Notes: a model not told the origin generated them from the sequence alone. A stretch of 64,000 nt of DNA from an uncultured virus (IMG/VR IMGVR_UViG_3300011646_000014) (IMGVR_UViG_3300011646_000014:1-64000); one strand, 5' to 3'. Shown: positions 1,641 to 19,893, counted from the stretch's first letter. Translations and numbers: made by a program.

Positions 1641-1684
1641 AGTTCCGGCCAACTTTCATTTAGTCGCCTGACATCAATGACGTG
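1622..1684 (-). pseudogene. Orphaned former 3' end of the Rz-like spanin gene
   Basis: Translates HVIDVRRLNESWPELNKTLN*, which aligns with the current Rz C-terminus HSLDAMRLYDSWPVK* (7 of 13 residues identical). Confidence 0.8.
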
Positions 1685-1739
1685 TTTAATATTCTAGTCT
1701 GTCACGTATAATAGAATTTTGCTGCTTGGGCTGAAAAAT

Positions 1740-3479: not shown

Positions 3480-3856
3480 TTTTTCCCACCTTTACCATTA
3501 CTAAGTATTGAAATAAATGCAGCTTTGACCTCACTAATAACCTCAGATAAAGGCTTACCATGCATCAATGCAATGGACTGATAAACAATGCCAATCGCTA
3601 ATAATCCAAAAACTGCAAACATAAGCATCACAAAGCCTTGAGCCATGTGAGAATATTTTGATAATTCGTAATATTCAATAAATGCTGAACCGCCATAAAG
3701 GCTGACTGAAACGCTGAATAGAAACTTGCCTATAACACCCAAAGAAACTTGAATTTTTCCGTTTTTATCAATGTCACCACTTAATACCAGGGCAAGAATA
3801 GCCCCCACTACGGCAGGCACAACTTTGATGATCCATGGAATTGTGTTTTCTTGCAT
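3476..3856 (-). CDS. Holin (about 3 TM)
   Basis: Three hydrophobic segments and a charged C-terminus; overlaps the endolysin start. Confidence 0.85.
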   Translation of the reverse strand: MQENTIPWIIKVVPAVVGAILALVLSGDIDKNGKIQVSLGVIGKFLFSVSVSLYGGSAFIEYYELSKYSHMAQGFVMLMFAVFGLLAIGIVYQSIALMHGKPLSEVISEVKAAFISILSNGKGGKN

Positions 3857-3867: not shown

Positions 3868-3901
3868 AATAAAACTCTACTTTATTTCGTAGAGTTTTAT
3901 T
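3868..3901. repeat. Perfect 13-bp inverted repeat upstream of the holin RBS
   Basis: AATAAAACTCTAC-N8-GTAGAGTTTTATT. Confidence 0.9.
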
Positions 3902-3918: not shown

Positions 3919-3934
3919 CGAACCTTACAGGGGG
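3919..3934 (-). promoter_or_regulatory. CCCTGTAAGG box upstream of holin
   Basis: Minus strand CCCCCTGTAAGGTTCG; the motif recurs before three other genes. Confidence 0.65.
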
Positions 3935-3963
3935 TTGATACTGCTCTAAAATTAATCTATCGT
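3935..3963 (+). promoter_or_regulatory. Putative sigma70 promoter of the DUF4124 moron
   Basis: TTGATA-17 nt-TATCGT; an additional TATAAT at 3971-3976. Confidence 0.55.
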
Positions 3964-3989
3964 AATTTCATATAATTATTATCTTTGAG

Positions 3990-4616
3990 ATGCGCATGAG
4001 TGTATTAAAAATTACAACATTTATTTTACTGTGTATTCCAGTAAATCTATATGCAGGGGTTTACAAATGGGTTGATGCAAAAGGTAATGTTACCTATTCA
4101 AGTAAGCCACCACCTAAGGGTGCTAAGCAACAGAATATAGAAACTTTACGATCGTTGGGTACAACCAGTACACCAGCACCTAAACAAACTTATCGCTCTA
4201 ATTCATCCATTCCTGACACGTATGTAAATCACTATCAGGGCACTCGTCAAAATACTTATACTGTGCCTCGTCAGCCTACACGCTCTGCTGAAGATGAAGC
4301 ATTGCGTCAAAAAATTATTCAGGAAGCTAGTACGCCATATAAAGGTTCTCAAAATGGTCAGTTAACCGCAAACCAATTAAGAACCCTAGCAGCAATGAAT
4401 GGTGTAAATGTTTCAAGTGGTGATAGTTATTCAAACTCAAATAACTCTTACTCTGCACCTATGCCACAACGTCAACCATCCACAATAACTAACTGTGATG
4501 GTGCAGGATGTTGGGGTTCAGATGGCACACGCTATAATCGTGGTGCAGGTGATACTTATTTCCCTTCTACTGGTGGAATATGTCAGGGTGTTGGTGGGCA
4601 AATGCAGTGTAACTAA
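3990..4616 (+). CDS. Secreted DUF4124-domain moron protein with C-terminal 4-Cys domain
   Basis: Signal peptide ending LYA; GVYKWVDAKGNVTYSSKPP (DUF4124); opposite strand to neighbours, with its own promoter and terminator. Confidence 0.88.
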   Translation: MRMSVLKITTFILLCIPVNLYAGVYKWVDAKGNVTYSSKPPPKGAKQQNIETLRSLGTTSTPAPKQTYRSNSSIPDTYVNHYQGTRQNTYTVPRQPTRSAEDEALRQKIIQEASTPYKGSQNGQLTANQLRTLAAMNGVNVSSGDSYSNSNNSYSAPMPQRQPSTITNCDGAGCWGSDGTRYNRGAGDTYFPSTGGICQGVGGQMQCN

Positions 4617-4638
4617 GTTATAAAACATAGAAGATTAA

Positions 4639-4664
4639 AGAAGCCACCATAAGGTGGCTTTTCT
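4639..4664. terminator. Bidirectional terminator
   Basis: AAGCCACC-ATAA-GGTGGCTT followed by TT, between convergent genes. Confidence 0.8.
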
Positions 4665-4672
4665 ATCACTAA

Positions 4673-7600
4673 TTATTCACCAAAAGCAAAGTAACCAGCT
4701 TCACGTGCATCTTGACGATTCCGTGACAAATATATGCCATCTTCTGCACGATCAATACGACGCTGGCGATTGCGGTAGCTTTGATTAAGGTTCATTCTAG
4801 TTATACGACGTGATGGATTTTTGTCATTGAAACCTTGAATTTCTTCCCAAATTTCATCCATCTCTTGTTGGTCATCCATCATTTTCGCTCGTGACCATAA
4901 TGCCATTAATCGACTACGACGCTCATTGAGCTTTCGGTTAAGCTGATAAACTGCCGATTTGCCTTCATAAGCAGTCCGTATATCAGACGGTGAAAAACCC
5001 ATGCCCTGTATCAACATATCCATTGAATCAACTTCATCAATAATGGAAACACCCGTTTTATCCTGAACACCCTCATCATTGTAGCGGTATGTTTTGGCAA
5101 AGTTTTTAAGAAATACTGGCAACATACTCTCAACACCACGTAGATTATGCCCTTCTGAAATTTCCTGAGCACCTTTTGCGATATTTGCCCCAATGCCGCC
5201 AATAGGACCTAAAGCCGCCGATGCTGCCGAATCCCACCATTTTTTACCTTCTAACCCTTCTTGTACGTCTGGTAATAAAAGATTATTAATACCAACACGA
5301 CTAGAAATATCCACACCAATACCGCGTGGCGCACCTTTCATCAACATATTTGAAATGGTTGGATTAAATGCTTCGGCAAGATAGTTACGCAATGCGACTT
5401 CTGCATCCCAAGGTTCGTCGTCATCCCCGCCCATCCAAGATGCAACCGACAACAACATTCCAACCATCGGTAAACCGAGAACACCAGCAAAAGTTGCGTG
5501 CATTGCCAAAATTGCACCAAGTGATTTACGGGCTTCTTTTCGTTCAGCTTCCGTTTCACCTTTAATGGACTGATAGGTCTGACGAGCCAATGTGTAAAGC
5601 ATGTTTTGACCAAACTGTTTAAACAGTAGAAGAACTTTGGCCACATTACCTTGCATGATGCGTGGGCGGTTTCCAGAACTGTAATCAAAGTGCCCTCTGT
5701 ATGTAGCATCTACAGCTTGATCAAATGCTGAATCATGCTTTTCACCTGATTGACGTGCTAGGCGATACGCTGCAATAAAGGTAACTTCACGGTTAAATCG
5801 TTCAGCACTATGGAACATAATACTTGCAGCACGCATAATAGGGCGTGTCTTCCACATCACACCACTATCTTCCCCCTGTGCAATTCCTGCTAAATCATGT
5901 GCCTGAGTGACATCAATCACGCCACGCGCCACAGCATCTTCATAAGCCTGTTTTTCATCTTTATTTAGAAATTTAGAAATATCGGAGCTAATTGTTTTGT
6001 AAAGGTCAGTTTTTGATCCTTCCCACTTCACCTTGTGAAACTCTACCCCCTTTCTAAAGTCATTCGATGCTTTCAGTAATTCATCTGCCGCTTTATCGAA
6101 GCCCCATTTAGCACCCATCAATGGATAAGCCACCAATGCTGTCTGCGATAAGTTGACCATAGCTGCTGCTGGTGATAGCCCCAGGTAATAAATAAAGCCC
6201 AAGCTGGTTAATGCACTTGATAAAGGATGCCCTTTAGGGTTCATTAAGTTGTCATGACGTTTATTCATTTCAGTGATGACACTTTGAGCAGATCGCTGAT
6301 CGTAATCCTCATCCACTTCAAACTGTTCATCAGCATACTTTTGCATCTCATCAAGCTGCTGTGCTAACTGATCACCATAGCGTAACTTAGCAAGATAATT
6401 AGCACCACTAAACATATTCTGTGCAAATGCCCGACGTGCATCTTGGCTAAACCCTGCTGTACCCTTACGGTGAATCCCATGTTTTGCCCAACTCAAATCA
6501 GGCATAGAAGATAAATAAAGCTGACTTAGAGTATCTTCAAATTCAGTTCGTTCCGCAGTCGATAGGCCTAAATTATCTACCTCTGCAAATAGACTGGTCA
6601 TAAACCCACGACCAACAGCATCTCTGGATTTGTTGTATTCCTTATCTAATTTCACTTTATTAACTTTATAGTGTGGAAATTTCTGTATAAGTTCAGAACG
6701 TAATGCCTGTGCTTCTCCCATGGTTTCGGCACGGCTAACGCTTTCAACTTCACCATTTTGGTTACGCATCACCACTACATATTTACCAAAACGAGCCAAT
6801 GGGAAATATACCCCTTTGATAGATCCGAAGAAGTTATCATCCATCTGTTTAAGTAAATCCGCTTTTTTCTGATTGGATAATTCAGAACGTAAGATGCGCT
6901 CTTTAATTGCTTGATGTACTTCTGCATAGTGCTTTTTATAAGCATCACGCGCTTTTAAATACATTGCCTGAGCTTCTGGTGATAGTGAATTATAGGCATC
7001 CCGTAATTGCTTATATTTTGAAATACTATCTCCACTAACATAGGGTTTGGTTGGGTCAATTTTTGCTAAAGTCGAATCATGCATTACATTTGCTAAAGCT
7101 TCTTCATCGTTTAAATTTCCCCATTCACGCACGATACTATCAGCTTCAGCACCCGCATCATTTTTATCAGCATCCATTTGAGCAGCCAATTCATTATATT
7201 TGTTTAACTGCGGTAAAATTTTGCTGTAAATTTCAGTAAGTTGTCGACGTCCTAAGGCTGATAAGCCAATACCTAACCAATCAGTAAATTTATAACCTGT
7301 TTTATCCTTGATAGATTTTGTTGATAGCTGTTTAATACTTTCACTTAAATTATTGATTGTATTATCAAAAAACTGACGACTATATAATGGTGAAACATTT
7401 TCAGCATTATATGAGGACTTCTCAATCATTCGCTCAGCAAGTGCAACCATATCATTTGGATTAAGGTTGAGATTTATTCCAAAATTATCAAATAGAGTGG
7501 CTTTTACATACGTCACTATATTGTTTATGAGTTTTTGTAATGCATTACGCTGTATTACATTACGTTGTTCCATTGTTGATGAAAGTGTCAATAAATATGG

Positions 7601-10600
7601 TAAATACTCAAGCTGTTGACGCTCAGAACCTTGTTCACGTTCCGCAAGTAGCTTTGCAGCCATAGCAACTGGATTACCTTGTTCAACCAATTTATTAAAT
7701 TGATTCATCAATTCATTATATTGCTTTTGGTTCATCATATTCTGAAAACCAGCATGACCACCTAACTCATGTAGGAATGTTGGTATGACACTTTGATTGG
7801 TTAAATTTGATGCTACAAGTACAGCTTTACCATTGTGATAAAAACCTTCTACACCCTCAATAGAGTAATCTTGAATAATTTCAAGCTTACCTTGTCGTTC
7901 AAGTTCATCAATAGTCTCTTTACCAAAACGATCAATCAATACCTCTCGTACTTGTTGAGTTGTAGAGCCTGAACTACTTTTAGTGCTACGGCTATAAAGT
8001 GGAGTATCAGAATCGTTCTTAGGTGAAAATTCTTGATTTTTATATTTACCAAAATAGCTTCGATCAACTACAGCCTTACGAGCTTCTGATAAAAACATCA
8101 TTAAATCAGCGTCATTGTAACGTGAAAGGAATTTATCAAAGCCACGATCACGGAACCATTGGCGTATATATCCAATAACCTCTTTGATTTTCTGGCTTAT
8201 AAAAGGTTTCTTTTCCTGATTTTGGGCAACAAATGCAAATAATTCCCCAACTAAAGCTTGTTGCACATTAAGAGGATCATAAAGCCCTTTTTCTGCACCT
8301 TGGGTATATGGCTCAATATATGCACTTTCAAACTGTGCCATATCCACACCATTTTTACTGGCGATTTTGCGGATGCCTTCAAGCTCACCTAAAGCATTAT
8401 AGAGTTGTTGTAGCTTGGTTTTATATTCTTGCCCAAATATCTGTTGTACACCAAAGTGCCCAATGATTTCATGGGCCAACATTTCCTCATAAGCATCAAA
8501 TGTAGTAAGCTGTTTTTCATTATCTCCATATACCTGATCAGCAACTACATAGAGTGTACCCTTATGCCAAACAGCACTAACATCATAGTTTTGGGTATTA
8601 CCTTTATCATCTTGGTATGTGGCATCTTTTTGTATTTCCGCAGGAAGTCCATCAAAGCTAGAAATAACTTGAACATCAAAGCCCCCCTTAATTCCAGCAC
8701 TTCCAACAGTAATTCGACCATTAATCGACGAATTTTGTGTAGTGGACAGTTTGAGTTGTTGAAGAACCGAAAGGACTCGTCGAGTAGCACTGACAACCGA
8801 TAAAGCATTAAAAGTTGTATCAAGTGGTGAAGTATCTCTACGCTCGTTATCAGGTTTTAATTTGTCACGGCTAAAATCATTTAATTTACCATTAATACCT
8901 TCAAACTCTTTAAGCGCATCCCCTAAACCCTGCTTTTCAAGTTCTATACGTTGTGAATCAATTGCCTTTTCCAAAATAGGTTTTTGATGTGTAGGAATAT
9001 CTGGACCTTTTGCAATTAGACGACGCTGCACACGTTTATGTGCTTCACGTGCATTAATCAAGTCATGGGCTTGAGCAAATGGTTGTTCAAGTTGCTGCAA
9101 CATAGATTCAATCTGCTTTTTAGCATCTTCAACCTTATGTTTAACATCATTAATATAGTCACTTAATCGACCAATATAGTTTGCAAAACGAGTAAGCATT
9201 CCAGATTCAGATGGCATTTTATCTCTTGTCGTATCGAAAGTAGCCATCTGTTCTGTTGGTGAATTGAGATATACATATCCTGCGATATTTTCCAAACTAA
9301 ATGGAATACCACGATAATTGAATACCACCTCACGCTGACCTGCAAAAGCATTTCTAAGTTGTGATTTGATTGCACCAACGGCATCATCACGGTTGGTATA
9401 TGTTTTTCCACCAACTTTAAGCCCTACAAAATCATCTTTATTGGCTGGTACAGGGTGCTTATTGGCTGTATCAATCAATGACTGGTATTCATCTAAAAGA
9501 TTTGGTGCAGTTTCATTGATATAACGCTGGTTCTGGCGAATACGACCACGCAACATTTGCTTTTCATCAACATTAGCACTTTGTAAAGTTTCCAAACGTC
9601 TAACTTCATTGCGTAATTGTGTTTCTTCCAGAATTAACGGATCACCTGATGCAGCAGCTTTCATATCTGCTGCATTGGCTGCTTCGCCCTCAATGTCATC
9701 AATTTCATTTAATGTGCCATCATAATTACGAAGCTGCTCAATACCACGAGCCTTATGTTCAAGGATTTGCCAACGACGAGTATCGTATGTTTGTTCTGTG
9801 GCATAACGGTAGATGGCAACCTCAAAGTTATCAGGGTCACGCTCATACAATTTATTGCCACGACGAACAATACGCCCCTCACGCTGTTCTAAATCAGATG
9901 GTTTCCATGGGGCATCAATGTGATGTAAAGCAACAAGCCTTTCTTGTACATTGGTACCAGCTCCCATCTTTTGGGTAGAGCCAAGCAAGACACGTACAGT
10001 ACCTTTATTTACTGCCTTAAATAGTTTTTCCTTTGCTGATGGTGTGTTGTAGTCATGGATAAAGGCAATTTCACGTTCTGGAATACCCTGCTCAATCAAC
10101 TTGGATTTTATATCATCATATACAGAAAACTGTGTTGCACCTGACGAACCAGCAATATCATCACGTGTAATTGATTCTGTCGCTTCAGTATCAATTTCAT
10201 GCTCATTGTTATATTCATCAATCGCTTCCTGCTCGATTTCTCCAACTCGTTCAATCGCTTCAACCCATGATTGTCTTGAATTGTCATTATTAATCAAAGT
10301 AGTAGCTTGTTCTAAAGCCATAGTTTTACTTGGCATACCACTTTTGATACGCTGACCAGATAAGGCATCATAAACAGCAAAGGATGTTTTATCCTTGCCA
10401 CTACCCTCTTTAATCACAAAGAATGGTATATCTTCATGCCCCTCAACGGTGTGCATCGTACCTTTTTTATGTACAAGGTTTCCGTCATTTCTGACATAAA
10501 CCCGACGTTCTTTATTGGCAAAACCACTACGAGCAGATAAAGGAATCGACATATCACAAAAAATTAACTGTGTACCCTTGTCTTTATTCCATTTTTGATA

Positions 10601-13600
10601 ATTTTCAATGGTGTGTGCCACTGCTTTATTAATCTTGGAATCTTTAAAATCGGGTGCAGTCGGGTCAATTAAACGATAATCTAATCCTGCTTTATTTGCT
10701 AATCCAGTAAGGGAAAGTGCATTAACTTTACCTTTAGTTTCTTGGGTCAGTTTTTTAAGGTTATTGAACTGCCCTAAAATTGATTTCTCATCAACAAAAA
10801 TCTTAGGTGTTAAAGCATATTCAACCAGTGCAAGACGTGCATCTTGTTCCGTTGCAAAAAGTCCTGAAACCTTAACTAAACCACTCTCATCAAGTATGCC
10901 AAGTGACACACTTCCATTATCCTGTGGTGCAAATGCAAAGGTATCCCCTTGTCGTGGGTCAAACTGGAATACTGGCTGACCATTTACGATTTCCAATTCA
11001 GGTGTACCCATAAACTCGGCAACCTGTTCAGAACGCTTGGCAACAATATTTTGTGGTCGTCCACCTGCAATTCTTGGTACAGGGAAAGTTTTACCCCGTG
11101 CAATTTCCTGTGCTTTCAGGTCATCCAATGTTACCGTATCGGCAAAACTGTTATATAAAGCCATCAATGCAGGCAAATTTTTAAACTTGCTGAAACGGTT
11201 AGATTGTCTAAAACCTGTACCAGATGGTGAAACCTCATATACAGATTCCACACTACCAAACTGTTTCGCCCACGCATCAAATACATGCAAATCATTGGCT
11301 TTTAATGTTGGGTACTGCAACAGACGTTGCATATTAAACATTTCAACCAGTGAATTAGAAACTGGTGTACCTGTTGCCCCAATCGCTGCGGCATTATCAT
11401 CACCAAAAGTATTAAACATCCATTGCAATTTAACAAACAGGTCAAATGCCTTGTCTGAACCTTTTGGATTCCCCATACCAGGAACACGTTGCATCGTTGT
11501 GTTGTAGAACAGGTTTTTAAACTCATGCAACTCATCTACGGCAAAGGCATCTGCACCAAGCTCGTCAAATGTGACGACCTTATCACGTTCCCCAAGATTC
11601 TGAATACGTTGCTTCATACGATTTTCTAAACGAGCCTTGATGTTCTCCATGTCTCTAACAATATGTCGATCACCACGTTCACGTTTAATTTCTTCAATCG
11701 CTGTTGCGATTTCATTGATCTGTTCTTCCAAAACCGCCCGTTCTGTTTCAGGTGGCAAAGCAATCTTTTTCAGCGAAGAATGACCAACAATCACAGCGTC
11801 CCAATCACCCGTGATGATTTTTGAGAAAAACTTTTCCCGATTGCCTTTGGAAAAGTCATCAGGGGTCGCTGCGAGGATATTTGAACCTGGATAAAGGCGG
11901 TTAAATTCACTACGCCATTGCAGTGTTAAGTGATTCGGCACGGCAATAAATGGTTTACGAGCAATGCCTAAACGACGCATTTCCATAAATGCTGTGACAA
12001 TTTCAAAAGTTTTGCCAGCACCGACAACGTGATCAAGTAATACTTGTCTATCCTGAAGAATACGCCATACCGCATTTTTCTGGTGTGGCAATAACGCCAT
12101 GACAGGATTCATACCAGGAAAGGTAAGGTGTGAACCATCAAATTTACGGTTCACAATCCTGTTCATCTTATCGTTATAAATAGCAGCAATATTTTCAGCT
12201 CGGTCTGGGTCAGCCCATAACCAGCGTTGCCACTCCACTTTTAATGCTGCCTGTTTTTCCCGTGCTGCTTCGGTTTCTTTCTCCATCACCTCTGTACGTG
12301 TACTACCATCTGCCATTTTTACAGTACGGGTTACAACTACACCTTGACCAGCCATTGTTCTGGTGAGGATTTCTGTTGCTGGCATCTTTTCAATACCCCA
12401 TTTCCCCACATTTAATGCAGGGTCGGGGGTACCATCAACCATAGCAATCCATTGACCAGTTGCTTTTAGATAGCGAAAAGTAAATTTAACACCCGTAATT
12501 TCTTTGGCAAACTGGTCATAAATTGTAGATGGAATAAAGTTTGCTCCCAAAGTTGCATGGATTTCGCTTGGCAATTTGTCCTTAGGAATAACTTTTTTCA
12601 GTGCATCAACATTACGCTTAAATTCAGGATTATTTTTGGCAATCGCTTGGGCTTCTTCCAGTTTGGTTTTAACATCACCAGACAGGTATTCATCAGCCAT
12701 GACTACACCACGAATCGGGTCGCTATAAACGGCATCTCCCAATTCACTTAAAATTTCATCAACTGGCTTATCATATAGATCAGCCATGTAATCCAGATCA
12801 ACCTTACCCTTGTAGTTTAATGACGCAAGTAACGCATCATTGGCATTATGGACTTTGATATTATTGGCAGGTGGAAAAAGCACACGTCTTGCAAAAATAT
12901 CTGCTTTTGTTGCTGACTCTGGACGCTGCTCAATGCCCTCACGTTCGGCAACTAATTTGCTAACACCACGGTCATAGTCAAATTCTAATGCCTGCACCAG
13001 TGCAGATTCCGTATCATCAAGGAAAATACGTCTATTCGTCTGATTGTTCAAATAGCCATATTCTTTTTGGAACTGATCATAAAGTTGGTTCAATTTCTTA
13101 CGGTTGGCTTCAATCTGCTTTGTATCTGCATCAAGTGATTTTTCCAAACGCATCTGGTCACGCAAAGTATCACGTAAGGCAATCATGCCTTTCATACGTT
13201 CCATTGCCTTATTGTTTGGAGAAATCCAAGATTGAGCCGTTTTCTCCCCCAACTCATCATCACCACGCTGTAACACATCACCTTTATCATTCACAAAGAA
13301 TGAGCCGACTTTGACACCATCGGGTACAGAATAATTGGCACTGGACATTACATCAGTGCGTGAAATTGGCTGATAGATATTTTCAGGAATATTGGTGCCA
13401 ACCCAATTCCGTAACAAGGCATCCAAAGGATAATTGATAGATTCAACGGTGTACTCATTGGCACGGTACATAGAACCGTTGGCAGTAGGTTCACCCAAAA
13501 TATGCTGTGGATTGTCAATAAAATATTGATTGACATTAATACTGGCAGTTTCACCAGTCTTATTGTTGGTTAAATCCTGCAAACCAGTTTCAACCCATTG

Positions 13601-16600
13601 TGTATTATTTGCAGCTTCATCCTTGCTACGTTTACGCAATACGATAATGTCGGTAACAACCTCGGTACCAGCATTTTCTTTAAATGCTGTATTTGGCAAA
13701 CGTACTGCGGCTACAAGGTCAGCACGTTCAGCAATCCATTTACGGGTATTGTTGGTTCTAGCATCCATAAAATTACGGGATACCACCATTGCCAAAATGC
13801 CACCAGGACGAAGTTTATCTACTGACTTGGCAAAGAAATAATTATGAATAGATGAACCTGAATATGGACTACGATCATTATCAACAATCGGCTCGTTACC
13901 AAAAGGTGGATTACCAATAACCAAATCAAAGTATTCAGCAGGAACTTGAAAATCCTGAAAACCTGTTGCCTTGGCAATTTTGGCACTTGGGTATAATGCT
14001 GCCACAATCTGGCTGGTAATTGGGTCAAGCTCAACCCCATGCAATTCGGATTTCTTGCGTAAACTGGCAGGCATCAACCCGAAGAAGTTACCTGTACCAA
14101 CTGATGGTTCGAGTACACGTCCACTTTTAAAGCCAAGACGATCTATAATAGATACAATGCCATTAACTACATCTTTTGATGTAAAGTGAGCATTTAAGAC
14201 TGATGCACGAGCAGCTTTATATTCTGTATCGGTAAGTAATGATTTGAGCTCAGTATATTCTTTAGACCATTGCTTGTTATCTTTATCGAATACGCCTTTT
14301 AATGCCCCCCATCCAACATATTGCGCAATCTGCTTACGTTCTTCAGGTGTTGCAACACGGTTTTCTGATTCCAATGTTTTTAGAATTTTAATCGTAGCAA
14401 TATTATCGTTATATTTCTGACGTAAACCTCCCTTGCCAATTTCCTCATTCTGTAAATCAAAATCTAATACTGGTTTATCAGATGTTTCGGATGTGGCAGG
14501 GTCTAACTCTCGCTCGGATACGGTGGTTCTGCGTCCAGTCCGTACAGTTCCGCTATCTCGTGCCGTGCCAGATGACGATTCTGCTCGTTGCTGTACACTG
14601 TCCGTTCCTGTTCTTCCTGATTTTTCAGGGCTTCCAGATACTCGCCCATTTTGATCAAGGCTTCCACTCGTGGTTGCCAACCCATCATCCAACGATTGGC
14701 TATCTCGATTGCTAAAGGTGGCATCTGTTGAAGTTGGTTGCGTATCGTTACTGGATACGTCCTTGGCTTGTATAGAGTTTGCATTATTTTCTGTTTCCAG
14801 ATTCTCAATATGATTATCATGCGCTAACTGAGGATTTGAACGCAATATTTGATTTCCATTCTTATCTAAAGCAGTTGCAGGTTTGGATGTATCCTCATTT
14901 TTAAGCCAGTCTTTGAACTGTTCCATATCCATATTACGGATAGGACCTACTTTCCAGCCTTTATCAAAGTTGGATTTATATGCGGTGGTAGCTTCTTCCT
15001 GATTGTTAAACCCAAGCATAACCTTGTGTTCATCAAAGTTACCTGATGCTTGGTCAATCTGATCCACTATAAATACCTGATTGGAATCTGGGTTACTCCC
15101 TATATAAGTATCAATGTGCTCATTATCGGCACCAGTAGTCCGTTTGATGTATCCATAGTGGTCACTCATTTCATGCGACCATTCTGTTCCATCAGGTCGC
15201 TTACCTGAACGAGTAGAACCCCGAGGATTTTCAACTGCAATATCTAGACCCTGAACTTTGATGTGTCCCTTTTTATAATTTCCAGCTTCAATCTGCGCCT
15301 GAGTTGGTTCTGGTAAATCATTCTGTGGACTCGTTGCAGCTTCATGTGCATTCGTATCAATTGGAGATGACTTCGGGTCCGAAATTGACTTTAAAGCCTC
15401 AAAAACCTTAATTGCTTTTTGGGGTTGCCAATAAGCCATGCTTTTTAATTCTGATTTAGCATTTGCAGCATTGATTCCAGCCTTATTTGCATAAGTATTA
15501 ATATGTTCTGCTGTTAATGCTTCAAATAAAGGCTTTGCTTGATTTTGAGCTGCCTTATGTTCATTTTTTCTGATTTCACTTTGATCTTTTAATAATTTAC
15601 TTTGCTCTGCCTTGTATTGATCAATTTGTGAATCAATATTGCCGCGTTTAGCTAAAGGCACATTTAAAACACCATGATCTAATACTTCAGAATTGAATGT
15701 ATTATTTCCCTGCTTCAAAGTTTCGATCTGTTTACGCAATTTGGCTTTCTGTGGAACAGATTTAGCTACTGAGAACTGTTGTTCAAGCTGAGAAAGCTGC
15801 TCACTTGGTGGTGCGATCCTTGAAACTTGTTTTGTTTCTGATGGTACTCCTAATCGTTCTGCACCTTGATTTACCGTACCCTCCAAGAAATGATTGAAAC
15901 GTGTTAATTCTTGAGGATATTCACGCTCAACTACCTGACCTGTCTTAGCATTGGTCAACTTAACAATCGATTTATCACCTGCATCAACAACTTCAACATT
16001 GCTAAATGATGGTGAGTTTTTATAGTAAATAAGATCAGTCGCGGCACCATTACCCGTTAAAGATTGATTTTTCTGTGCTAACGAATTGGTATCACCTTGG
16101 TACTGTTGTAAAGCCTGACTAGCAATATCCTTTGACCAAGGAAGTGATCCAACAGAAAGATTAGCATCAGCATTGAATGCGGGCTTTGACTGATTTTCAG
16201 CAACGGAGCTATTAGTTTTGAGTTCATCAATTTGTTTACGAATCTCTGCCTTTTTAGGCACACTTTTAGCATCTGCAAACTGTTGTTCAAGATAATCAAT
16301 TTGTGATTGGTTTGTTTTGCTATCAAGCAATGATTGATAACTAGATGGTACGACATCACTTAATGGCGTATTACCTTCCTGTTGTTCCGATGAAAAAGTT
16401 AACTGTGCAACTGGCGAAGCGCCACTATCCACGGCCAAAGCTGCTGCTGATGACATTGGCCCATCATTTGGATTAATACCTAAGCGTTCTGACGGTAACT
16501 GTGGCTGTGTTGGAGTATCATCAAAATAGTTTCCACCACCTGGAGATAGTGGACTATCTGGGTTATTTGATGGGCCAAAATTACCAGATGTATTAAAATC

Positions 16601-17770
16601 AGTATCACCACTGTAATTGTTGCCCAATAAATTATCAGCTTCCATTGACGGCTGATCGTATACAAATGCAGTTCGGCTTTGATTTGTACTGCCTTGTGAT
16701 GGATCTACACGAGGAATATATTCGCCAGCGAGTGAACCATCTTGGCTTGTATTTAATTGTGGTACTGAAGGCAAATTAGTTGTAGCGAGTTCAGACTGAT
16801 TGACCTGAGGCTCATTTTCAGCATTATGGCCAGACAAGATATTGGCACCACCACCCATTGCCATACCAGCCAAAGTACCCATGACAGCGGCATCTTCAAT
16901 ACCATCGTGCCAAGGCTTATCTAATGCTAAGTTCTGTAAAATTTGTTCAGAAACGGATTGAGGTAACTCTTCTAAAAACCCTTCTGAAATAGCACCTTCT
17001 ACCACGCGACGAGGTAAAGACTTCGCAGGCATTGAAGCAATCTCACCTGCGATTTCTGCTGGACCTGCTCGCCCTGTTACAAGCATTGTATCTACATCAC
17101 CAATACCCATTTTCTGGGCAAGACGACCACCAGCAAAACCAAGCAAACCACCAAGTACACCAGTTGTTGCACCAGCCAATGACTGATCTGCTGTTAAGCG
17201 TCCATCTACAGTTTCTTGGCGAATCTGTTCAGCTTGGCTACCTGCCATAACTGTACCCTCACCAACAGCACCAGCCACAACAGGATTAGCTATACCTGAA
17301 GCACGACCTAATAGGCCACCAGCTAACATTGAAGGTACAGATTCAACGACAGTATTAGTAATTAATGAGGGATTTGTTAAAGCAACTTTTGTTTTATCAA
17401 CAACTTTATCTACCCAATTTCCATCTTTACCAGCATCAGCAAATTCTTGTTGTTGGGCTTTATATTGGTCTGTATGTAAATCACCTAGAGCTTGTTTAGC
17501 TTCTTTAGGTCGAAAGCCAATAGCACCATCTTTATTTTCAAGTGTTTTACCGGTAGCACCATCAGACATGACATCCATGATACCAACAGCCAATTCAGGC
17601 ACAGCAACCGCACCTTTTAAAGCAGATAAGCCAGTATCTTTTAAGTGTCCCATTACACCTTTTTTTTCACCATCAAGTGCACCAGTAAATGGTTTTAATG
17701 CTGGCTGTTGATTTGTATCAATATTTTCGTCAAGTTTACCTGTAAATGGTTTTAGGGTAGATTCTGACAT
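4673..17770 (-). CDS. 4365-aa polyvalent virion protein: InPase, DarB-like N6-adenine MTase, SNF2 helicase, 2x metallopeptidase, PLxRFG
   Basis: GNYKKGH...HYGYI...FDEHKVMLGF (InPase); VLEPSVGTG and NPPF (MTase); HVVGAGKT, DELH, TGTP, MGAGTNVQ, QREGR (SF2 helicase); HEIIGH and HELGGH; YFPLARFG. AGGAG RBS. Confidence 0.92.
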   Translation of the reverse strand: MSESTLKPFTGKLDENIDTNQQPALKPFTGALDGEKKGVMGHLKDTGLSALKGAVAVPELAVGIMDVMSDGATGKTLENKDGAIGFRPKEAKQALGDLHTDQYKAQQQEFADAGKDGNWVDKVVDKTKVALTNPSLITNTVVESVPSMLAGGLLGRASGIANPVVAGAVGEGTVMAGSQAEQIRQETVDGRLTADQSLAGATTGVLGGLLGFAGGRLAQKMGIGDVDTMLVTGRAGPAEIAGEIASMPAKSLPRRVVEGAISEGFLEELPQSVSEQILQNLALDKPWHDGIEDAAVMGTLAGMAMGGGANILSGHNAENEPQVNQSELATTNLPSVPQLNTSQDGSLAGEYIPRVDPSQGSTNQSRTAFVYDQPSMEADNLLGNNYSGDTDFNTSGNFGPSNNPDSPLSPGGGNYFDDTPTQPQLPSERLGINPNDGPMSSAAALAVDSGASPVAQLTFSSEQQEGNTPLSDVVPSSYQSLLDSKTNQSQIDYLEQQFADAKSVPKKAEIRKQIDELKTNSSVAENQSKPAFNADANLSVGSLPWSKDIASQALQQYQGDTNSLAQKNQSLTGNGAATDLIYYKNSPSFSNVEVVDAGDKSIVKLTNAKTGQVVEREYPQELTRFNHFLEGTVNQGAERLGVPSETKQVSRIAPPSEQLSQLEQQFSVAKSVPQKAKLRKQIETLKQGNNTFNSEVLDHGVLNVPLAKRGNIDSQIDQYKAEQSKLLKDQSEIRKNEHKAAQNQAKPLFEALTAEHINTYANKAGINAANAKSELKSMAYWQPQKAIKVFEALKSISDPKSSPIDTNAHEAATSPQNDLPEPTQAQIEAGNYKKGHIKVQGLDIAVENPRGSTRSGKRPDGTEWSHEMSDHYGYIKRTTGADNEHIDTYIGSNPDSNQVFIVDQIDQASGNFDEHKVMLGFNNQEEATTAYKSNFDKGWKVGPIRNMDMEQFKDWLKNEDTSKPATALDKNGNQILRSNPQLAHDNHIENLETENNANSIQAKDVSSNDTQPTSTDATFSNRDSQSLDDGLATTSGSLDQNGRVSGSPEKSGRTGTDSVQQRAESSSGTARDSGTVRTGRRTTVSERELDPATSETSDKPVLDFDLQNEEIGKGGLRQKYNDNIATIKILKTLESENRVATPEERKQIAQYVGWGALKGVFDKDNKQWSKEYTELKSLLTDTEYKAARASVLNAHFTSKDVVNGIVSIIDRLGFKSGRVLEPSVGTGNFFGLMPASLRKKSELHGVELDPITSQIVAALYPSAKIAKATGFQDFQVPAEYFDLVIGNPPFGNEPIVDNDRSPYSGSSIHNYFFAKSVDKLRPGGILAMVVSRNFMDARTNNTRKWIAERADLVAAVRLPNTAFKENAGTEVVTDIIVLRKRSKDEAANNTQWVETGLQDLTNNKTGETASINVNQYFIDNPQHILGEPTANGSMYRANEYTVESINYPLDALLRNWVGTNIPENIYQPISRTDVMSSANYSVPDGVKVGSFFVNDKGDVLQRGDDELGEKTAQSWISPNNKAMERMKGMIALRDTLRDQMRLEKSLDADTKQIEANRKKLNQLYDQFQKEYGYLNNQTNRRIFLDDTESALVQALEFDYDRGVSKLVAEREGIEQRPESATKADIFARRVLFPPANNIKVHNANDALLASLNYKGKVDLDYMADLYDKPVDEILSELGDAVYSDPIRGVVMADEYLSGDVKTKLEEAQAIAKNNPEFKRNVDALKKVIPKDKLPSEIHATLGANFIPSTIYDQFAKEITGVKFTFRYLKATGQWIAMVDGTPDPALNVGKWGIEKMPATEILTRTMAGQGVVVTRTVKMADGSTRTEVMEKETEAAREKQAALKVEWQRWLWADPDRAENIAAIYNDKMNRIVNRKFDGSHLTFPGMNPVMALLPHQKNAVWRILQDRQVLLDHVVGAGKTFEIVTAFMEMRRLGIARKPFIAVPNHLTLQWRSEFNRLYPGSNILAATPDDFSKGNREKFFSKIITGDWDAVIVGHSSLKKIALPPETERAVLEEQINEIATAIEEIKRERGDRHIVRDMENIKARLENRMKQRIQNLGERDKVVTFDELGADAFAVDELHEFKNLFYNTTMQRVPGMGNPKGSDKAFDLFVKLQWMFNTFGDDNAAAIGATGTPVSNSLVEMFNMQRLLQYPTLKANDLHVFDAWAKQFGSVESVYEVSPSGTGFRQSNRFSKFKNLPALMALYNSFADTVTLDDLKAQEIARGKTFPVPRIAGGRPQNIVAKRSEQVAEFMGTPELEIVNGQPVFQFDPRQGDTFAFAPQDNGSVSLGILDESGLVKVSGLFATEQDARLALVEYALTPKIFVDEKSILGQFNNLKKLTQETKGKVNALSLTGLANKAGLDYRLIDPTAPDFKDSKINKAVAHTIENYQKWNKDKGTQLIFCDMSIPLSARSGFANKERRVYVRNDGNLVHKKGTMHTVEGHEDIPFFVIKEGSGKDKTSFAVYDALSGQRIKSGMPSKTMALEQATTLINNDNSRQSWVEAIERVGEIEQEAIDEYNNEHEIDTEATESITRDDIAGSSGATQFSVYDDIKSKLIEQGIPEREIAFIHDYNTPSAKEKLFKAVNKGTVRVLLGSTQKMGAGTNVQERLVALHHIDAPWKPSDLEQREGRIVRRGNKLYERDPDNFEVAIYRYATEQTYDTRRWQILEHKARGIEQLRNYDGTLNEIDDIEGEAANAADMKAAASGDPLILEETQLRNEVRRLETLQSANVDEKQMLRGRIRQNQRYINETAPNLLDEYQSLIDTANKHPVPANKDDFVGLKVGGKTYTNRDDAVGAIKSQLRNAFAGQREVVFNYRGIPFSLENIAGYVYLNSPTEQMATFDTTRDKMPSESGMLTRFANYIGRLSDYINDVKHKVEDAKKQIESMLQQLEQPFAQAHDLINAREAHKRVQRRLIAKGPDIPTHQKPILEKAIDSQRIELEKQGLGDALKEFEGINGKLNDFSRDKLKPDNERRDTSPLDTTFNALSVVSATRRVLSVLQQLKLSTTQNSSINGRITVGSAGIKGGFDVQVISSFDGLPAEIQKDATYQDDKGNTQNYDVSAVWHKGTLYVVADQVYGDNEKQLTTFDAYEEMLAHEIIGHFGVQQIFGQEYKTKLQQLYNALGELEGIRKIASKNGVDMAQFESAYIEPYTQGAEKGLYDPLNVQQALVGELFAFVAQNQEKKPFISQKIKEVIGYIRQWFRDRGFDKFLSRYNDADLMMFLSEARKAVVDRSYFGKYKNQEFSPKNDSDTPLYSRSTKSSSGSTTQQVREVLIDRFGKETIDELERQGKLEIIQDYSIEGVEGFYHNGKAVLVASNLTNQSVIPTFLHELGGHAGFQNMMNQKQYNELMNQFNKLVEQGNPVAMAAKLLAEREQGSERQQLEYLPYLLTLSSTMEQRNVIQRNALQKLINNIVTYVKATLFDNFGINLNLNPNDMVALAERMIEKSSYNAENVSPLYSRQFFDNTINNLSESIKQLSTKSIKDKTGYKFTDWLGIGLSALGRRQLTEIYSKILPQLNKYNELAAQMDADKNDAGAEADSIVREWGNLNDEEALANVMHDSTLAKIDPTKPYVSGDSISKYKQLRDAYNSLSPEAQAMYLKARDAYKKHYAEVHQAIKERILRSELSNQKKADLLKQMDDNFFGSIKGVYFPLARFGKYVVVMRNQNGEVESVSRAETMGEAQALRSELIQKFPHYKVNKVKLDKEYNKSRDAVGRGFMTSLFAEVDNLGLSTAERTEFEDTLSQLYLSSMPDLSWAKHGIHRKGTAGFSQDARRAFAQNMFSGANYLAKLRYGDQLAQQLDEMQKYADEQFEVDEDYDQRSAQSVITEMNKRHDNLMNPKGHPLSSALTSLGFIYYLGLSPAAAMVNLSQTALVAYPLMGAKWGFDKAADELLKASNDFRKGVEFHKVKWEGSKTDLYKTISSDISKFLNKDEKQAYEDAVARGVIDVTQAHDLAGIAQGEDSGVMWKTRPIMRAASIMFHSAERFNREVTFIAAYRLARQSGEKHDSAFDQAVDATYRGHFDYSSGNRPRIMQGNVAKVLLLFKQFGQNMLYTLARQTYQSIKGETEAERKEARKSLGAILAMHATFAGVLGLPMVGMLLSVASWMGGDDDEPWDAEVALRNYLAEAFNPTISNMLMKGAPRGIGVDISSRVGINNLLLPDVQEGLEGKKWWDSAASAALGPIGGIGANIAKGAQEISEGHNLRGVESMLPVFLKNFAKTYRYNDEGVQDKTGVSIIDEVDSMDMLIQGMGFSPSDIRTAYEGKSAVYQLNRKLNERRSRLMALWSRAKMMDDQQEMDEIWEEIQGFNDKNPSRRITRMNLNQSYRNRQRRIDRAEDGIYLSRNRQDAREAGYFAFGE
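14503..14784 (-). CDS. Probable 93-aa gene overprinted (same strand, different frame) inside the giant gene
   Basis: Globular-looking sequence (IEIANRWMMGWQPRVEALI...HLARHEIAELYGL) coincides with a low-complexity S/T/G/R linker in the main frame. Confidence 0.65.
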   Translation of the reverse strand: MQTLYKPRTYPVTIRNQLQQMPPLAIEIANRWMMGWQPRVEALIKMGEYLEALKNQEEQERTVYSNEQNRHLARHEIAELYGLDAEPPYPSES

Positions 17771-17910: not shown

Positions 17911-17917
17911 ATCCCAA

Positions 17918-19840
17918 TCAATTGCCTATAAATCGATTACCTTGAGCATCCTCATAAACAGGCTTGCCATTGCTTGTACCTACTTGACGTGTCATGCCAT
18001 TTGGTAGATTAGTCGATGATGCAGCTGGTGTATTAACGAACTGCTGTGTCTGAGTATCAAACAATTGTTGTGGCTGATTAATCAAACCGCCTTCTTTATC
18101 ATAAACTTGACCACCACCCACAGTCATATAACGGTCTTTACCAGTATCTGCTTTATTACCTGCATAACGATTAATTTTTTCTTGAATGGATTTACGATCT
18201 TCATCCGATTTCGCAGAATCATATTGCTCGTACAATTTCTCTAATCGTGCTGAGTTACGAATGCCAAAACCTTTTTCAGTGGCATTAAGATTAAATTCTC
18301 GATTCGCTAAATCATTGGTCGCTTGGAATTTTTGTGCATCAAAACCTAAATTTGCATTAAAGCGGTTATTGGTACCTTGCTCACTTAGTTCTGTACGATA
18401 GTTCTGTCCAGCTTGCCCCATGGCTTCACGCTGTAAAGCAGCAACATTGTTTGCATCAGTGGTATAACGTTGATTTGCACGATTATCCTCACCTTGCTGT
18501 AAATCAGATAAAGTACGGACTTGATTAGCAGTTAATCCTCTTGCCCCTGCAATTGGTGTGCTTGCTGCACGAATTACAGCTTGACGTTCAGCTTCCTGTG
18601 AATCATTACGTTGAGGTGCTTGTACAGGATTATTACCATAACCTCGCATACTCAAGCCTAAATTCATTTCACGTTGAGCGATTGCATTTTGAATCTGTTG
18701 TTCAGTCGGTCCCATTTCTTGAGTATTGGCAAATAAATTTGCTACCCCACGAGGGTCATTCACTGGTCTTACTTTGAATCCTAGCCCTTCACCTTCTCGA
18801 ACTCCATCTGCTCGTGCTTGGGCTGCTGCACCAGGATTAGCATAGCTAAAGCTGTTTCCTTTTTGCTGAATAGCATAAGGATCAGAGTTTTGTACAGAGT
18901 TTGATGTAGTCTGGGTTTCAGGCTGTGTTTGTGTAGTAGATGGTATTTTATTATTACCAAATGGATTGTTTACAACAGCATTTGGATTATTCTGTTTAGC
19001 ATTAAATTCGGGTTGAGCTGCTTTTGCTTCACTTGCAATACGTTGTTTATCCGCATAAAAGCGTCCAGCTTGTCCAAAAGTTAAAGCATTACCTAAGTCT
19101 GAAGCATAACCTAATGCACGAACACCAAAATCTTTAGCAAATCCTTTTGCTGTACCTAAATCTTCTGGTGACTGATCACCTAAACCAAAACGTTCTCGAT
19201 AATCTTCACTTGGTGTGGCAGCGTTTGCAAATAGAGAAGATGCTGCACCTAAATAACCAACACCTTTTACAAGCTTGCTATTGTTGACAAAATTTCTTAT
19301 ACCTCCGCCAAAACCCCCACCTTTTGTTGGTGCTGGATTACTTGGACTTGCTGATGGTGAGCTGGTTGCTGAAGGTGTAGTTGATGTTGCTGGAAGTTGA
19401 CGATTAATTGGTGTTACATCACGCATTTGTGGCCCACCAACTCTATTTTGTTGTGCACGACGAATATCATCTGCACTTGGGTAGGCACTTGGTACCAGTC
19501 CACCATTTGCAAAAAATAACTCAGGTTTATTTTGACCAGGCTTAAAACCCAATTGAGGTTGATTAACAGGCATATGTGTCTGATTTTTCATGGCATCAAG
19601 TGTTTGCACACCCACCGAATGAACTTGGTCAGGCGAGAGTTGGAACTCACCGTTACTGAGATTAACCGGCGTGGGACTCCCCATATTTTTTAAATTATTG
19701 GTACCAATCTGCTGAGTCGAATCAGCAGGCATAATATAGCTACCTGCTGGAACATTTTTTTTAACATCGTCAGAAGTGCCTGTACCTGCACCTTGAATCA
19801 GTCCACTTTCATCTTTTTGGCGTTTTTTTAAACCGTACAT
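17918..19840 (-). CDS. Putative DNA-ejection/internal virion protein (likely start MYGLKK at 19840)
   Basis: GGGAG RBS before 19840; Q/N/A/G-rich; tape-measure-like GTGTSD...LSNGEF...FANGGLV motifs; adjacent to the polyvalent protein. Confidence 0.6.
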   Translation of the reverse strand: MYGLKKRQKDESGLIQGAGTGTSDDVKKNVPAGSYIMPADSTQQIGTNNLKNMGSPTPVNLSNGEFQLSPDQVHSVGVQTLDAMKNQTHMPVNQPQLGFKPGQNKPELFFANGGLVPSAYPSADDIRRAQQNRVGGPQMRDVTPINRQLPATSTTPSATSSPSASPSNPAPTKGGGFGGGIRNFVNNSKLVKGVGYLGAASSLFANAATPSEDYRERFGLGDQSPEDLGTAKGFAKDFGVRALGYASDLGNALTFGQAGRFYADKQRIASEAKAAQPEFNAKQNNPNAVVNNPFGNNKIPSTTQTQPETQTTSNSVQNSDPYAIQQKGNSFSYANPGAAAQARADGVREGEGLGFKVRPVNDPRGVANLFANTQEMGPTEQQIQNAIAQREMNLGLSMRGYGNNPVQAPQRNDSQEAERQAVIRAASTPIAGARGLTANQVRTLSDLQQGEDNRANQRYTTDANNVAALQREAMGQAGQNYRTELSEQGTNNRFNANLGFDAQKFQATNDLANREFNLNATEKGFGIRNSARLEKLYEQYDSAKSDEDRKSIQEKINRYAGNKADTGKDRYMTVGGGQVYDKEGGLINQPQQLFDTQTQQFVNTPAASSTNLPNGMTRQVGTSNGKPVYEDAQGNRFIGN

Positions 19841-19893
19841 GACAAACTCCCATATATATGCCATGTATGGTTAATCAATCTAAGTTATAGGCG

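What the first reader, a model, noticed from the sequence alone, without database searches (positions are those of the whole stretch)
3990..4616. Secreted moron copies a motif of the phage's own putative ejection protein: candidate decoy/mimic superinfection exclusion
Seen: moron segment PTRSAEDEALRQKIIQEASTPYKGSQNGQLTANQLRTL (4275-4388, +) aligns with PQRNDSQEAERQAVIRAASTPIAGAR--GLTANQVRTL (18616-18509, -) in the 648-aa virion gene. That is 20 identities in 38 columns, while the flanks look unrelated and the DNA is diverged. The moron has a signal peptide, a DUF4124 domain, a 4-Cys C-terminal domain, its own sigma70 promoter and terminator, and runs antisense to the late genes, so it is likely expressed in the lysogen. 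Inference: a periplasmic protein displaying the ejection protein's interaction motif could poison the DNA-injection conduit or occupy its host partner, blocking related phages.
Basis: partly seen in the sequence, partly recalled or inferred. Interest (0 to 1): 0.88.

Follow-up and report, generated by a model that had tools for sequence, protein, structure and literature searches.

The report
Secreted prophage protein copies late-gene motif
An Acinetobacter prophage carries a small, self-contained gene for an exported protein that holds a true copy of a 40-residue helix-loop-helix piece of one of the phage's own large late proteins, which makes it a testable candidate for a new way of blocking infection by rival phages.

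Summary
The 208-aa ORF (3990-4616, +) and the 648-aa ORF (17918-19864, -) share about 40 residues: 20/41 identities, E 2e-7 pairwise and 3e-6 across the whole provirus.

It is not chance. A profile of the segment finds 120 proteins among 1.84 billion representatives. By my domain profiles, 79 are 648-type and 27 are "moron"-type, meaning motif once or twice plus the C-terminal 4-Cys domain.

119 of 120 listed moron homologues keep the motif, 4 carry it twice, and 1 has lost it, as has phage F116.

The gene is a 738-bp insertion/deletion cassette lying antisense to the late genes. Relatives export the same motif + Cys unit through a signal peptide, a lipobox or a membrane anchor.

In the 648-aa protein the motif caps a roughly 105-residue helix. 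It is also a local replacement hot-spot: 0.62 identity against 0.88 and 0.91 in the flanks.

The decoy/exclusion reading stays unproven:
- The motifs do not co-vary within phages.
- The 648-aa homologue is not among the proteins that the H66 record marks as mass-spectrometry-verified virion parts.
- Close relatives carry the Cys domain without the motif.
- Expression in lysogens is not shown.

Verdict: a genuine, unusual shared module. Exclusion at DNA entry is the best but unproven explanation (about 0.4).

The parts
3934..4672 (.). Moron cassette: a 738-bp insertion/deletion unit between the giant gene's stop codon and the older hairpin upstream of the holin gene
   Evidence: Contigs of three public runs join 3933/3934 to 4672/4673, skipping 738 bases; whether other letters lie between is not known. 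In the A. tianfuensis relative, homology upstream of the gene begins at 3935.
3935..3963 (+). Promoter-like site: TTGATA, 17-base spacer, TATCGT. A perfect TATAAT lies further on at 3971-3976.
   Evidence: 9 of 12 matches; the number of such sites is not above chance in this region; conserved in 5 of 8 aligned relatives.
3990..4616 (+). ORF of 208 aa: exported DUF4124 / helix-loop-helix / 4-Cys protein
3990..4055 (+). Residues 1-22: predicted Sec signal peptide
   Evidence: Hydropathy and residue pattern only; homologues have comparable N-termini
4026..4184 (+). Residues 13-65: DUF4124 (PF13511) match; beta hairpin 25-37 in the model
   Evidence: (low-confidence model)
4275..4400 (+). Residues 96-137: shared helix-loop-helix module (helix 100-114, loop, helix 127-136)
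4476..4613 (+). Residues 163-208: C-terminal 4-Cys beta-rich domain, the constant module of the family
4641..4660 (.). G+C-rich hairpin (8 pairs) between the convergent small gene and the giant gene; probable two-way terminator
3868..3901 (.). 13-bp perfect inverted repeat upstream of the holin gene, probably the older terminator between the giant gene and the lysis genes. H66 has an annotated terminator in the same place.
   Evidence: Read; H66 annotation
17918..19864 (-). 648-aa late protein, member of phrog_11341
   Evidence: E 1.1e-131
18494..18625 (-). Residues 414-457 of the 648-aa protein: the shared module, which caps a helix of about 105 residues (446-550)
   Evidence: replacement hot-spot
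4673..17770 (-). 4365-aa polyvalent protein (InPase, Eco57I-type methylase, helicase, LPD39; DarB-like)
   Evidence: The homologue H66 gp60 is marked as a mass-spectrometry-verified virion protein in its record and is related to T7 IVP-D in PMC4819975 (passages).
19908..22451 (-). 847-aa late protein (phrog_10969), the first gene of the 847/648/giant module

Best explanation
The gene is a self-contained moron cassette in an Acinetobacter provirus. It encodes a protein that is exported to the periplasm and is built of three small modules joined by low-complexity linkers:
1. a DUF4124 beta hairpin, probably a localising or anchoring part, because relatives replace it with a lipid anchor or a membrane helix;
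2. a helix-loop-helix module;
3. a disulphide-type 4-Cys domain.

The helix-loop-helix is a true homologue of the cap of the long helix in the C-terminal core of the phage's own 648-aa late protein. That protein sits next to the injected polyvalent giant protein.

Most likely the protein acts in the envelope of the lysogen, or of the infected cell, against DNA delivery by related incoming phages. It would present a copy of that cap. The copy would either take the cap's partner or join the incoming protein's assembly as a dead-end subunit, and the Cys domain would hold it at the right envelope site.

Shown: homology of the module, its restriction to these two families, cassette nature, export signals, duplication and loss of the module, and local hyper-variability of the module in the 648-aa family.

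Inferred: periplasmic location, expression from the prophage, that the 648-aa protein leaves the virion and meets the periplasm, and the blocking effect itself.
For: - Real homology: (hit H34).
- Exclusivity: of 120 profile hits (E <= 1e-3) in 1.84e9 representatives, 79 are 648-type, 27 are motif(1-2x)+Cys-domain type, 10 carry the motif only and 4 are unassigned.
- Purifying selection in the small protein: motif identity 0.53 against 0.34 and 0.40 in the linkers; 119 of 120 homologues keep it; the DNA is diverged.
- Tandem duplication of the module: 4 of 120 homologues and 7 of 27 representative clusters.
- Three different export routes for the same motif+Cys unit: signal peptide+DUF4124, lipobox (P0163), membrane-anchored (P0157, P0216).
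- Cassette indel and antisense insertion at two different places inside the late operon.
- All 14 records with a motif-bearing small gene that I checked also hold a 648-family gene. Three proviruses without a 648 gene carry a motif-less homologue.
- The motif segment of the 648 family is replaced in 3 of the 9 closest relatives while the flanks stay 88-91% identical. This is the pattern expected of a specificity or escape determinant.
- The 648 C-terminal half models confidently (pLDDT 85) as a cap plus a helix of about 105 residues, roughly 150 angstroms long by my estimate at 1.5 angstroms per residue.
- Precedents: exported Ltp binds a tape measure protein through a repeat domain (PMC3952083, passages). 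P22 SieA blocks the ejection-protein conduit, and escape mutations lie in the ejection proteins (PMC10883804, abstract).
Against: - No own-pair co-variation: 16 phages, own-pair score 66.9 against 64.2 +/- 2.8 when shuffled; 16.8% of 10,000 shuffles reach the observed value.
- In G001 the small protein's motif is identical to the window's, yet its own 648 motif is replaced. In G020 the 648 homologue shows no motif.
- The Cys domain, not the motif, is the constant part. Relatives with 92-93% identical 648 proteins have zinc-ribbon/membrane-anchored Cys-domain proteins without the motif. F116, the other listed phages of its 26.7%-identity group (only F116 was read through) and P0117 have DUF4124+Cys without it.
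- The 648 homologue is not marked as a virion protein in H66, Epa33 or 8P, although neighbouring genes are.
- In the Pseudomonas relatives the small gene is co-directional with the late and lysis genes, so prophage expression is not a general property.
- The promoter scan is not above chance.
- There are no matches to known defence families.
Confidence: 0.4

Rival explanations
1. The module binds a host envelope structure, and the protein is not a decoy. The helix-loop-helix would bind the same host envelope component in both proteins. The small exported protein would use it, together with the Cys domain and DUF4124, to remodel or mask a surface structure, for example the type IV pilus machinery that F116-type phages use as receptor. 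This would be lysogenic conversion or receptor masking, not interference with the conduit itself.
For: The only characterised DUF4124 protein I found, TfpC of N. gonorrhoeae, is a periplasmic type IV pilus factor (PMC7593972, passages). F116 is listed among pilus-specific phages (PMC6024842, passage). Prophage proteins that imitate a pilus component and give defence are described (PMC12952977, abstract start from the search listing). The export signals and the constant Cys domain fit an envelope-binding protein.
Against: DUF4124 is replaceable by a lipid or membrane anchor, so it is unlikely to be the specific effector. The TfpC paper itself says that orthology of distant DUF4124 proteins cannot be assumed. 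No host protein carries the module: among the 120 profile hits I saw no third family. The receptor of the Acinetobacter phages is unknown.
Confidence: 0.2
2. The protein has a late, lysis-linked function. It would be made during lytic growth and act in the periplasm at or after lysis, for example in lysis timing, or in protecting progeny from wasteful adsorption to or ejection into debris. It would share the module because both proteins dock to the same phage-encoded partner.
For: In the three Hollowayvirus genomes whose gene maps I read (F116, PA8, Epa33; 34 phage records match the small protein), the gene lies directly after holin, endolysin, spanin and a virion protein, on the same strand. 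In the window it shares a 133-bp divergent region with the holin gene.
Against: In 2 Acinetobacter relatives whose maps I read, the gene lies between the 648 gene and the giant gene, far from the lysis genes, and in all Acinetobacter cases seen it is antisense. It is an optional cassette, which is unusual for a core lysis function.
Confidence: 0.15
3. The module is a relic of domain shuffling with no functional link. A fragment of the late gene was once captured by a DUF4124/Cys-domain gene and persists as a structural spacer. The two copies would no longer share a partner.
For: No co-variation. The module is dispensable in several lineages. The DNA is old and diverged.
Against: The module is better conserved than the linkers around it. 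It is kept in 119 of 120 homologues and duplicated in tandem several times. It keeps the same two invariant residues (T and Q after the loop) as the 648 family across genera.
Confidence: 0.15

Closest known systems
Ltp of Streptococcus phage TP-J34 (superinfection-exclusion lipoprotein)
   Same: Prophage-encoded and exported. Built as anchor + low-complexity spacer + small helical repeat domain. Blocks DNA injection by binding a virion protein that enters the envelope, the tape measure protein (PMC3952083, passages). Here too there is an anchor, spacers and a small helical module that is sometimes doubled, and some relatives are lipoproteins.
   Different: No sequence match to any Pfam family other than DUF4124. 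Gram-negative periplasm. Has an extra 4-Cys domain. The helical module here is a homologue of part of a phage late protein, which is not reported for Ltp in what I read.
P22 SieA
   Same: A prophage function that blocks DNA delivery of related phages at the envelope. Escape maps to the ejection proteins, and natural variation in those proteins matters (PMC10883804, abstract).
   Different: SieA is an integral inner-membrane protein. The window's protein has only an N-terminal signal sequence and no similarity was found. SieA is not described as a copy of its target.
Prophage-encoded FimU-like pilus protein (anti-phage defence by imitation)
   Same: A prophage protein that resembles another protein's part and protects through the envelope (PMC12952977; start of the abstract in the search listing, and methods passages).
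   Different: That protein imitates a host pilus component. Here the copied part comes from a phage protein. No sequence relation was tested.
TfpC (DUF4124) of Neisseria gonorrhoeae
   Same: Carries PF13511 and is predicted to be periplasmic (PMC7593972, passages); PF13511 is met here.
   Different: TfpC is a chromosomal pilus-stability factor. The paper warns that distant DUF4124 proteins need not be orthologues. In this family DUF4124 is interchangeable with other anchors.
T7 internal virion protein C / P22 gp20 class (for the 648-aa protein)
   Same: Lies directly upstream of a protein related to T7 IVP-D (PMC4819975, passages). Strongly helical, with a helix of about 105 residues. Diverges fast.
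   Different: No sequence or fold match to any solved structure. Virion presence is not documented. The paper names no candidate for this slot in the F116 group in the passages I read.
T4 Imm/Sp, HK97 gp15, T5 Llp, phi80 Cor (recalled, not looked up here)
   Same: Phage-encoded envelope proteins that stop entry of related phages.
   Different: None is known to me to carry a copy of a segment of the phage's own late protein. This comparison rests on recall.

Membership tests
DUF4124 (PF13511) | Match to the Pfam model above its gathering score | tested here: met
   E 1.9e-13, 50.8 bits against a cut-off of 22, residues 13-65
Moron (autonomous gene cassette inside a phage operon) | Present or absent between the same two flanking genes in related genomes | tested here: met
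   Joints 3933/3934 to 4672/4673 in contigs of 3 runs; whether another insert replaces it is not known. The gene sits at other sites in relatives.
Moron (autonomous gene cassette inside a phage operon) | Own promoter | tested here: inconclusive
   A TTGATA-17-TATCGT site lies at the cassette edge, and the homology boundary falls there. But 4 sites were found against 3.8 expected by chance, and there is no transcript-start data.
Moron (autonomous gene cassette inside a phage operon) | Own terminator | tested here: inconclusive
   The hairpin 4641-4660 lies inside the cassette. The scan scored it for the minus strand only, and on the plus strand the T tail is weaker.
Moron (autonomous gene cassette inside a phage operon) | Expressed from the repressed prophage | not testable with these tools
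   Only assembled contigs of RNA-type libraries were on hand, and these cannot show level, strand or ends.
Ltp-type exclusion lipoproteins | Lipobox and match to the family's model | tested here: not met
   Pfam scan at E <= 0.01 gives DUF4124 only. The window protein has no lipobox by eye, although one distant relative, P0163, has one.
P22 SieA-type exclusion proteins | Integral inner-membrane protein | tested here: not met
   The only hydrophobic stretch is the N-terminal one. There is no family match.
Known anti-phage defence families (PADLOC) | Match to any model | tested here: not met
   0 families at E <= 0.01 for the small protein, the 648-aa protein and the 847-aa protein
phrog_11341 (648-aa protein) | Match to the PHROG profile | tested here: met
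   E 1.1e-131, residues 9-618 on profile positions 1-651 of 678; function unknown
Ejection / internal virion protein (648-aa protein) | Presence in the virion | not testable with these tools
   The H66 record marks gp54, gp60 and gp64 as mass-spectrometry-verified virion parts, while the homologue gp59 is 'hypothetical'. The same pattern of labels holds in Epa33 and 8P.
Ejection / internal virion protein (648-aa protein) | Synteny next to an IVP-D-type protein, and helical build | tested here: met
   The gene lies directly upstream of the giant gene. The giant's relation to T7 IVP-D is taken from PMC4819975 (passages) and was not retested. Helix 446-550, pLDDT 85.
Ejection / internal virion protein (648-aa protein) | Sequence or fold likeness to a solved ejection protein | tested here: not met
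   The only match is a weak one of residues 20-57 to a repeat in a tape measure protein (8zdo_S, E 0.02). Foldseek against the PDB gives nothing at E <= 0.001.

The most novel reading that the evidence does not exclude
A widespread family of prophage-encoded periplasmic proteins has captured the cap of the long helix of the phage's own DNA-delivery (or co-injected) protein. It uses that copy, single or doubled, as a decoy or dead-end subunit to stop DNA entry by competing relatives. The target's cap is in turn being swapped among close relatives to escape. This would be a phage-against-phage arms race written as cassette replacement in both genes.
Probability: 0.25. Interest if true: 0.8.

Novelty: new variant of a known kind. 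Interest (0 to 1): 0.6.

Why it matters
Prophage proteins that block entry of other phages are common, but few mechanisms are understood, and targets are usually found only through escape mutants. Here the sequence itself points to a candidate target: the exported protein carries a homologous copy of a defined, structurally confident element of a late protein. That element is a local variability hot-spot.

If the link is functional, it would be a self-derived mimic used for exclusion. It would also assign a role to three elements that now have none or almost none: the 4-Cys domain, phrog_11341, and a DUF4124 domain with a single characterised member. And it would give a simple rule, a shared module between an exported moron and a virion gene, for finding other such pairs in genome data.

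I found no paper on DUF4124 in phages. The full-text search for 'DUF4124' returned 11 papers, 9 of them listed, and none of the 9 is about phages.

Tried and rejected
- Complex prediction of the mature small protein with residues 400-625 of the 648-aa protein: no verdict (score 0.10, mark 0.32). This is no evidence either way.
- Structure of the small protein: low confidence (pLDDT 52.8), so it was not used for fold search.
- Fold searches with the 648 C-terminal half. PDB: nothing at E <= 0.001. Viral library: one unnamed homologue only.
- ESM Atlas look-up of the Cys domain: no usable hit.
- Profile searches against solved structures: none for the small protein.
- PADLOC and NCBIfam: no match for the small, 648-aa and 847-aa proteins.
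- RNA evidence: 24 runs were listed and all are kept as assembled contigs. I laid 4 of the 24. Contigs of one metatranscriptome cover the gene, but contigs cannot show expression, strand or ends, and the runs were found with this very stretch. Nothing is concluded about expression.
- Promoter scan: not above chance.
- G+C content: cassette 0.384 against 0.393 for the window, so no anomaly.
- Own-pair co-variation: absent.
- Search for a paper on phage 8P: none in the library.
- Only 120 of the 166 homologues were listed and analysed.
- The motif profile (A5) was built from both families, so it matches both by construction. The meaningful result is the absence of a third family.

Full report
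**What the window is.** The window is almost all of a 64,946-bp IMG/VR provirus.

Homologues of the small protein that carry names come from Acinetobacter species: bereziniae, guillouiae, piscicola, defluvii and others.

The gene order from the left end is:
- integrase, 1-1617, +
- an HNH-type endonuclease gene, 1719-2408, +
- spanin-like, GH19 endolysin and holin-like genes, 2401-3856, -
- the 208-aa ORF, 3990-4616, +
- a 4365-aa gene, 4673-17770, -
- the 648-aa gene, 17918-19864, -
- an 847-aa gene, 19908-22451, -
- large tail genes, a tape measure gene, a major tail protein, head genes and terminase, all on the minus strand.

The 847/648/giant block and the small gene have their nearest named relatives in the Pseudomonas Hollowayviruses such as F116, H66, PA8 and Epa33. 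The giant protein is a polyvalent, DarB-like protein with InPase, Eco57I-type methylase, helicase and LPD39 domains.

BLASTP of the two proteins gives 20/41 identities with one two-residue gap (E 2e-7). Nothing else scores below E 0.25. A six-frame search of the whole record finds only this second place (E 3e-6). At the DNA level 65 of 123 columns agree, so this is old, protein-level conservation and not a recent copy.

**It is a module shared by exactly two families.**

- *In the 648-aa family.* The segment is present in the homologues of F116, PA8, Epa33 and 8P. It is also present in most Acinetobacter and Psychrobacter relatives.
- *In the small-protein family.* I tested the 120 listed homologues, out of 166 found, with a motif profile. 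119 have the motif, 4 have two tandem copies and 1 (167 aa) has none. All 120 keep the DUF4124 part and the Cys domain.
- *In F116.* The real homologue is an unannotated 167-aa frame that lacks the segment. PA8 and Epa33 have a diverged copy.
- *In the whole library.* I aligned 24 motif segments from both families (A5) and searched 1.84 billion representative proteins. 120 scored E <= 1e-3.

I sorted these 120 with my own domain profiles:

| Class | Count |
|---|---|
| 648-type (the motif, where found, always followed by the 648 C-terminal region) | 79 |
| Motif once (20) or twice (7), followed by the Cys domain | 27 |
| Motif only | 10 |
| Unassigned | 4 |

- Of the 10 motif-only proteins, the six I read look like diverged or rearranged 648-type proteins or fragments. 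Two more carry DUF4124. Two short ones were not examined.
- I saw no third family and no host protein with the module.

**Anatomy.**

- *Small protein.* The model is poor (pLDDT 52.8). It gives a beta hairpin (25-37), two helices (100-114 and 127-136, the motif) and a small beta-rich Cys domain.
- *648-aa protein.* I modelled the C-terminal half with a 90-row alignment, and the model is confident (pLDDT 85). It has a helix at 421-435, a loop, one continuous helix from 446 to 550, a short helix, and a small beta domain.
- *What is copied.* The small protein therefore copies the first helix, the loop and the first dozen residues of the long helix. That is the cap of a rod roughly 150 angstroms long, by my estimate at 1.5 angstroms per residue.

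**Export.** The window protein has a typical N-terminal hydrophobic signal (no predictor was run). Distant members attach the same motif + Cys unit to a lipobox (P0163) or to membrane helices (P0157, P0216).

21 moron-type representatives had missed my narrow DUF4124 profile, and I scanned them against Pfam. 16 of the 21 still hit DUF4124. Three different export routes for one unit argue that the unit works outside the cytoplasm. They also argue that DUF4124 is an anchoring or localising part and not the effector.

**Cassette.** Contigs of three public runs join 3933/3934 to 4672/4673, skipping exactly the small gene with its upstream 56 bases and its downstream hairpin. In the A. tianfuensis relative, upstream homology starts at 3935, the first base of a TTGATA-17-TATCGT match.

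In two relatives the gene sits, again antisense, between the 648 gene and the giant gene. In Pseudomonas phages it follows the lysis genes on the same strand. So it is a mobile unit that stays close to the late end of this module.

Whether it is transcribed in lysogens is not shown. The promoter scan is not above chance, and the RNA-type data on hand are contigs.

**Association and variation.** I searched 30 records holding a relative of the small gene or of its Cys domain. 26 hold a 648-family gene. The four that do not are a 28%-complete fragment and three proviruses of 35-44 kb whose homologue lacks the motif.

All 14 records with a motif-bearing small gene that I compared have a 648 gene. 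In 12 of those the 648 motif is recognisable. In G001 it is replaced, and in G020 it is not found.

Among the nine closest 648 proteins the motif segment is 62% identical on average, against 88% and 91% for its flanks. Three genomes carry replaced versions that still keep the invariant T and Q after the loop.

The motifs of the small protein do not track those of the phage's own 648 protein. The own-pair score is 66.9 against 64.2 +/- 2.8 for shuffled pairs, and 16.8% of shuffles reach it (16 phages, which are related, so the test is weak).

**What speaks against the decoy idea.** The constant part of the family is the Cys domain. Proviruses whose 648 protein is 92-93% identical to the window's carry zinc-ribbon or membrane-anchored Cys-domain proteins without the motif.

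The 648 homologue is only 'hypothetical' in the H66 record, which marks gp54, gp60 (the giant) and gp64 as mass-spectrometry-verified virion parts. Epa33 and 8P show the same pattern of labels.

The evidence that it is an ejection-type protein is indirect:
- its place directly upstream of the giant protein, which Hardies et al. relate to T7 internal virion protein D (PMC4819975, passages read);
- a weak likeness of residues 20-57 to a repeat in a tape measure protein (E 0.02);
- the long helix.

**Reading.** The best explanation is an exported prophage protein that interferes in the envelope with DNA delivery by related phages, through the copied cap (confidence 0.4). This resembles Ltp, which has an anchor, a spacer and a helical repeat domain that binds a tape measure protein (PMC3952083, passages). 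It also resembles P22 SieA in outcome, where escape maps to the ejection proteins (PMC10883804, abstract). It is a member of neither family.

The rivals are:
- a shared host-binding module used for surface remodelling, with a type IV pilus link through TfpC and F116's receptor (PMC7593972 and PMC6024842, passages);
- a late, lysis-linked role;
- a relic of domain shuffling.

**Limits.**
- No signal-peptide predictor was run.
- There are no raw RNA reads.
- The library of representatives carries no names or context.
- The co-variation test has few, related genomes.
- Supplements of the papers were not opened.

Noticed in passing
window 1644-2447 (ORF 1719-2408, +): The HNH-type endonuclease gene next to the integrase is also an insertion/deletion unit. 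Contigs of three runs join 1644 to 2409 or 1682 to 2447, skipping 764 bases. Its G+C content is the lowest of the genes measured (0.33).
   Followed up: partly
window 37420-49197 versus 4673-22451: The provirus combines siphovirus-type tail genes (major tail protein with Ig-like domain; 1210-aa tape measure protein with a TMP_3 domain) with the 847/648/giant module. The nearest named relatives of that module are in Hollowayvirus (F116-group) phages, which PMC4819975 treats as podoviruses.
   Followed up: no
window 3868-3901: A perfect 13-bp inverted repeat lies between the cassette and the holin gene. It is probably the older terminator between the giant gene and the lysis genes, since H66 has an annotated terminator at the same place. 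The length of an A run varies at 3866/3867, and several contigs break at 3869 and 3902.
   Followed up: partly
window 41130-43812: Two Rha/Ant-type anti-repressor-like genes and a 'membrane-flanked domain' gene (phrog_3707, moron category) sit between the tape measure region and the head-tail genes.
   Followed up: no
window 19908-22451 (847-aa protein): The C-terminal third holds a run of similar short units (recurring R-Y-A-D-M/L ... R-T ... I-A type segments), visible in the translation. I did not analyse it.
   Followed up: no
P0222 (590 aa): In this distant relative the domain that opens the 648-aa protein (the tape-measure-like G-T-G-T-S-D ... G-E-F part) lies at the C-terminal end, after the motif. 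The arrangement is permuted.
   Followed up: no
L001 2959-3462 (phage F116, NC_006552): The annotated F116p65 (locus positions 2909-3328) is in a different frame from the 167-aa ORF that is the true homologue of the small protein. The record's annotation seems to miss the real gene.
   Followed up: partly
L039 and L049 (both in IMGVR_UViG_2700989279_000001): This provirus holds two separate genes ending in the 4-Cys domain, one of 193 aa and one membrane-anchored of 206 aa. Neither carries the helix-loop-helix.
   Followed up: no
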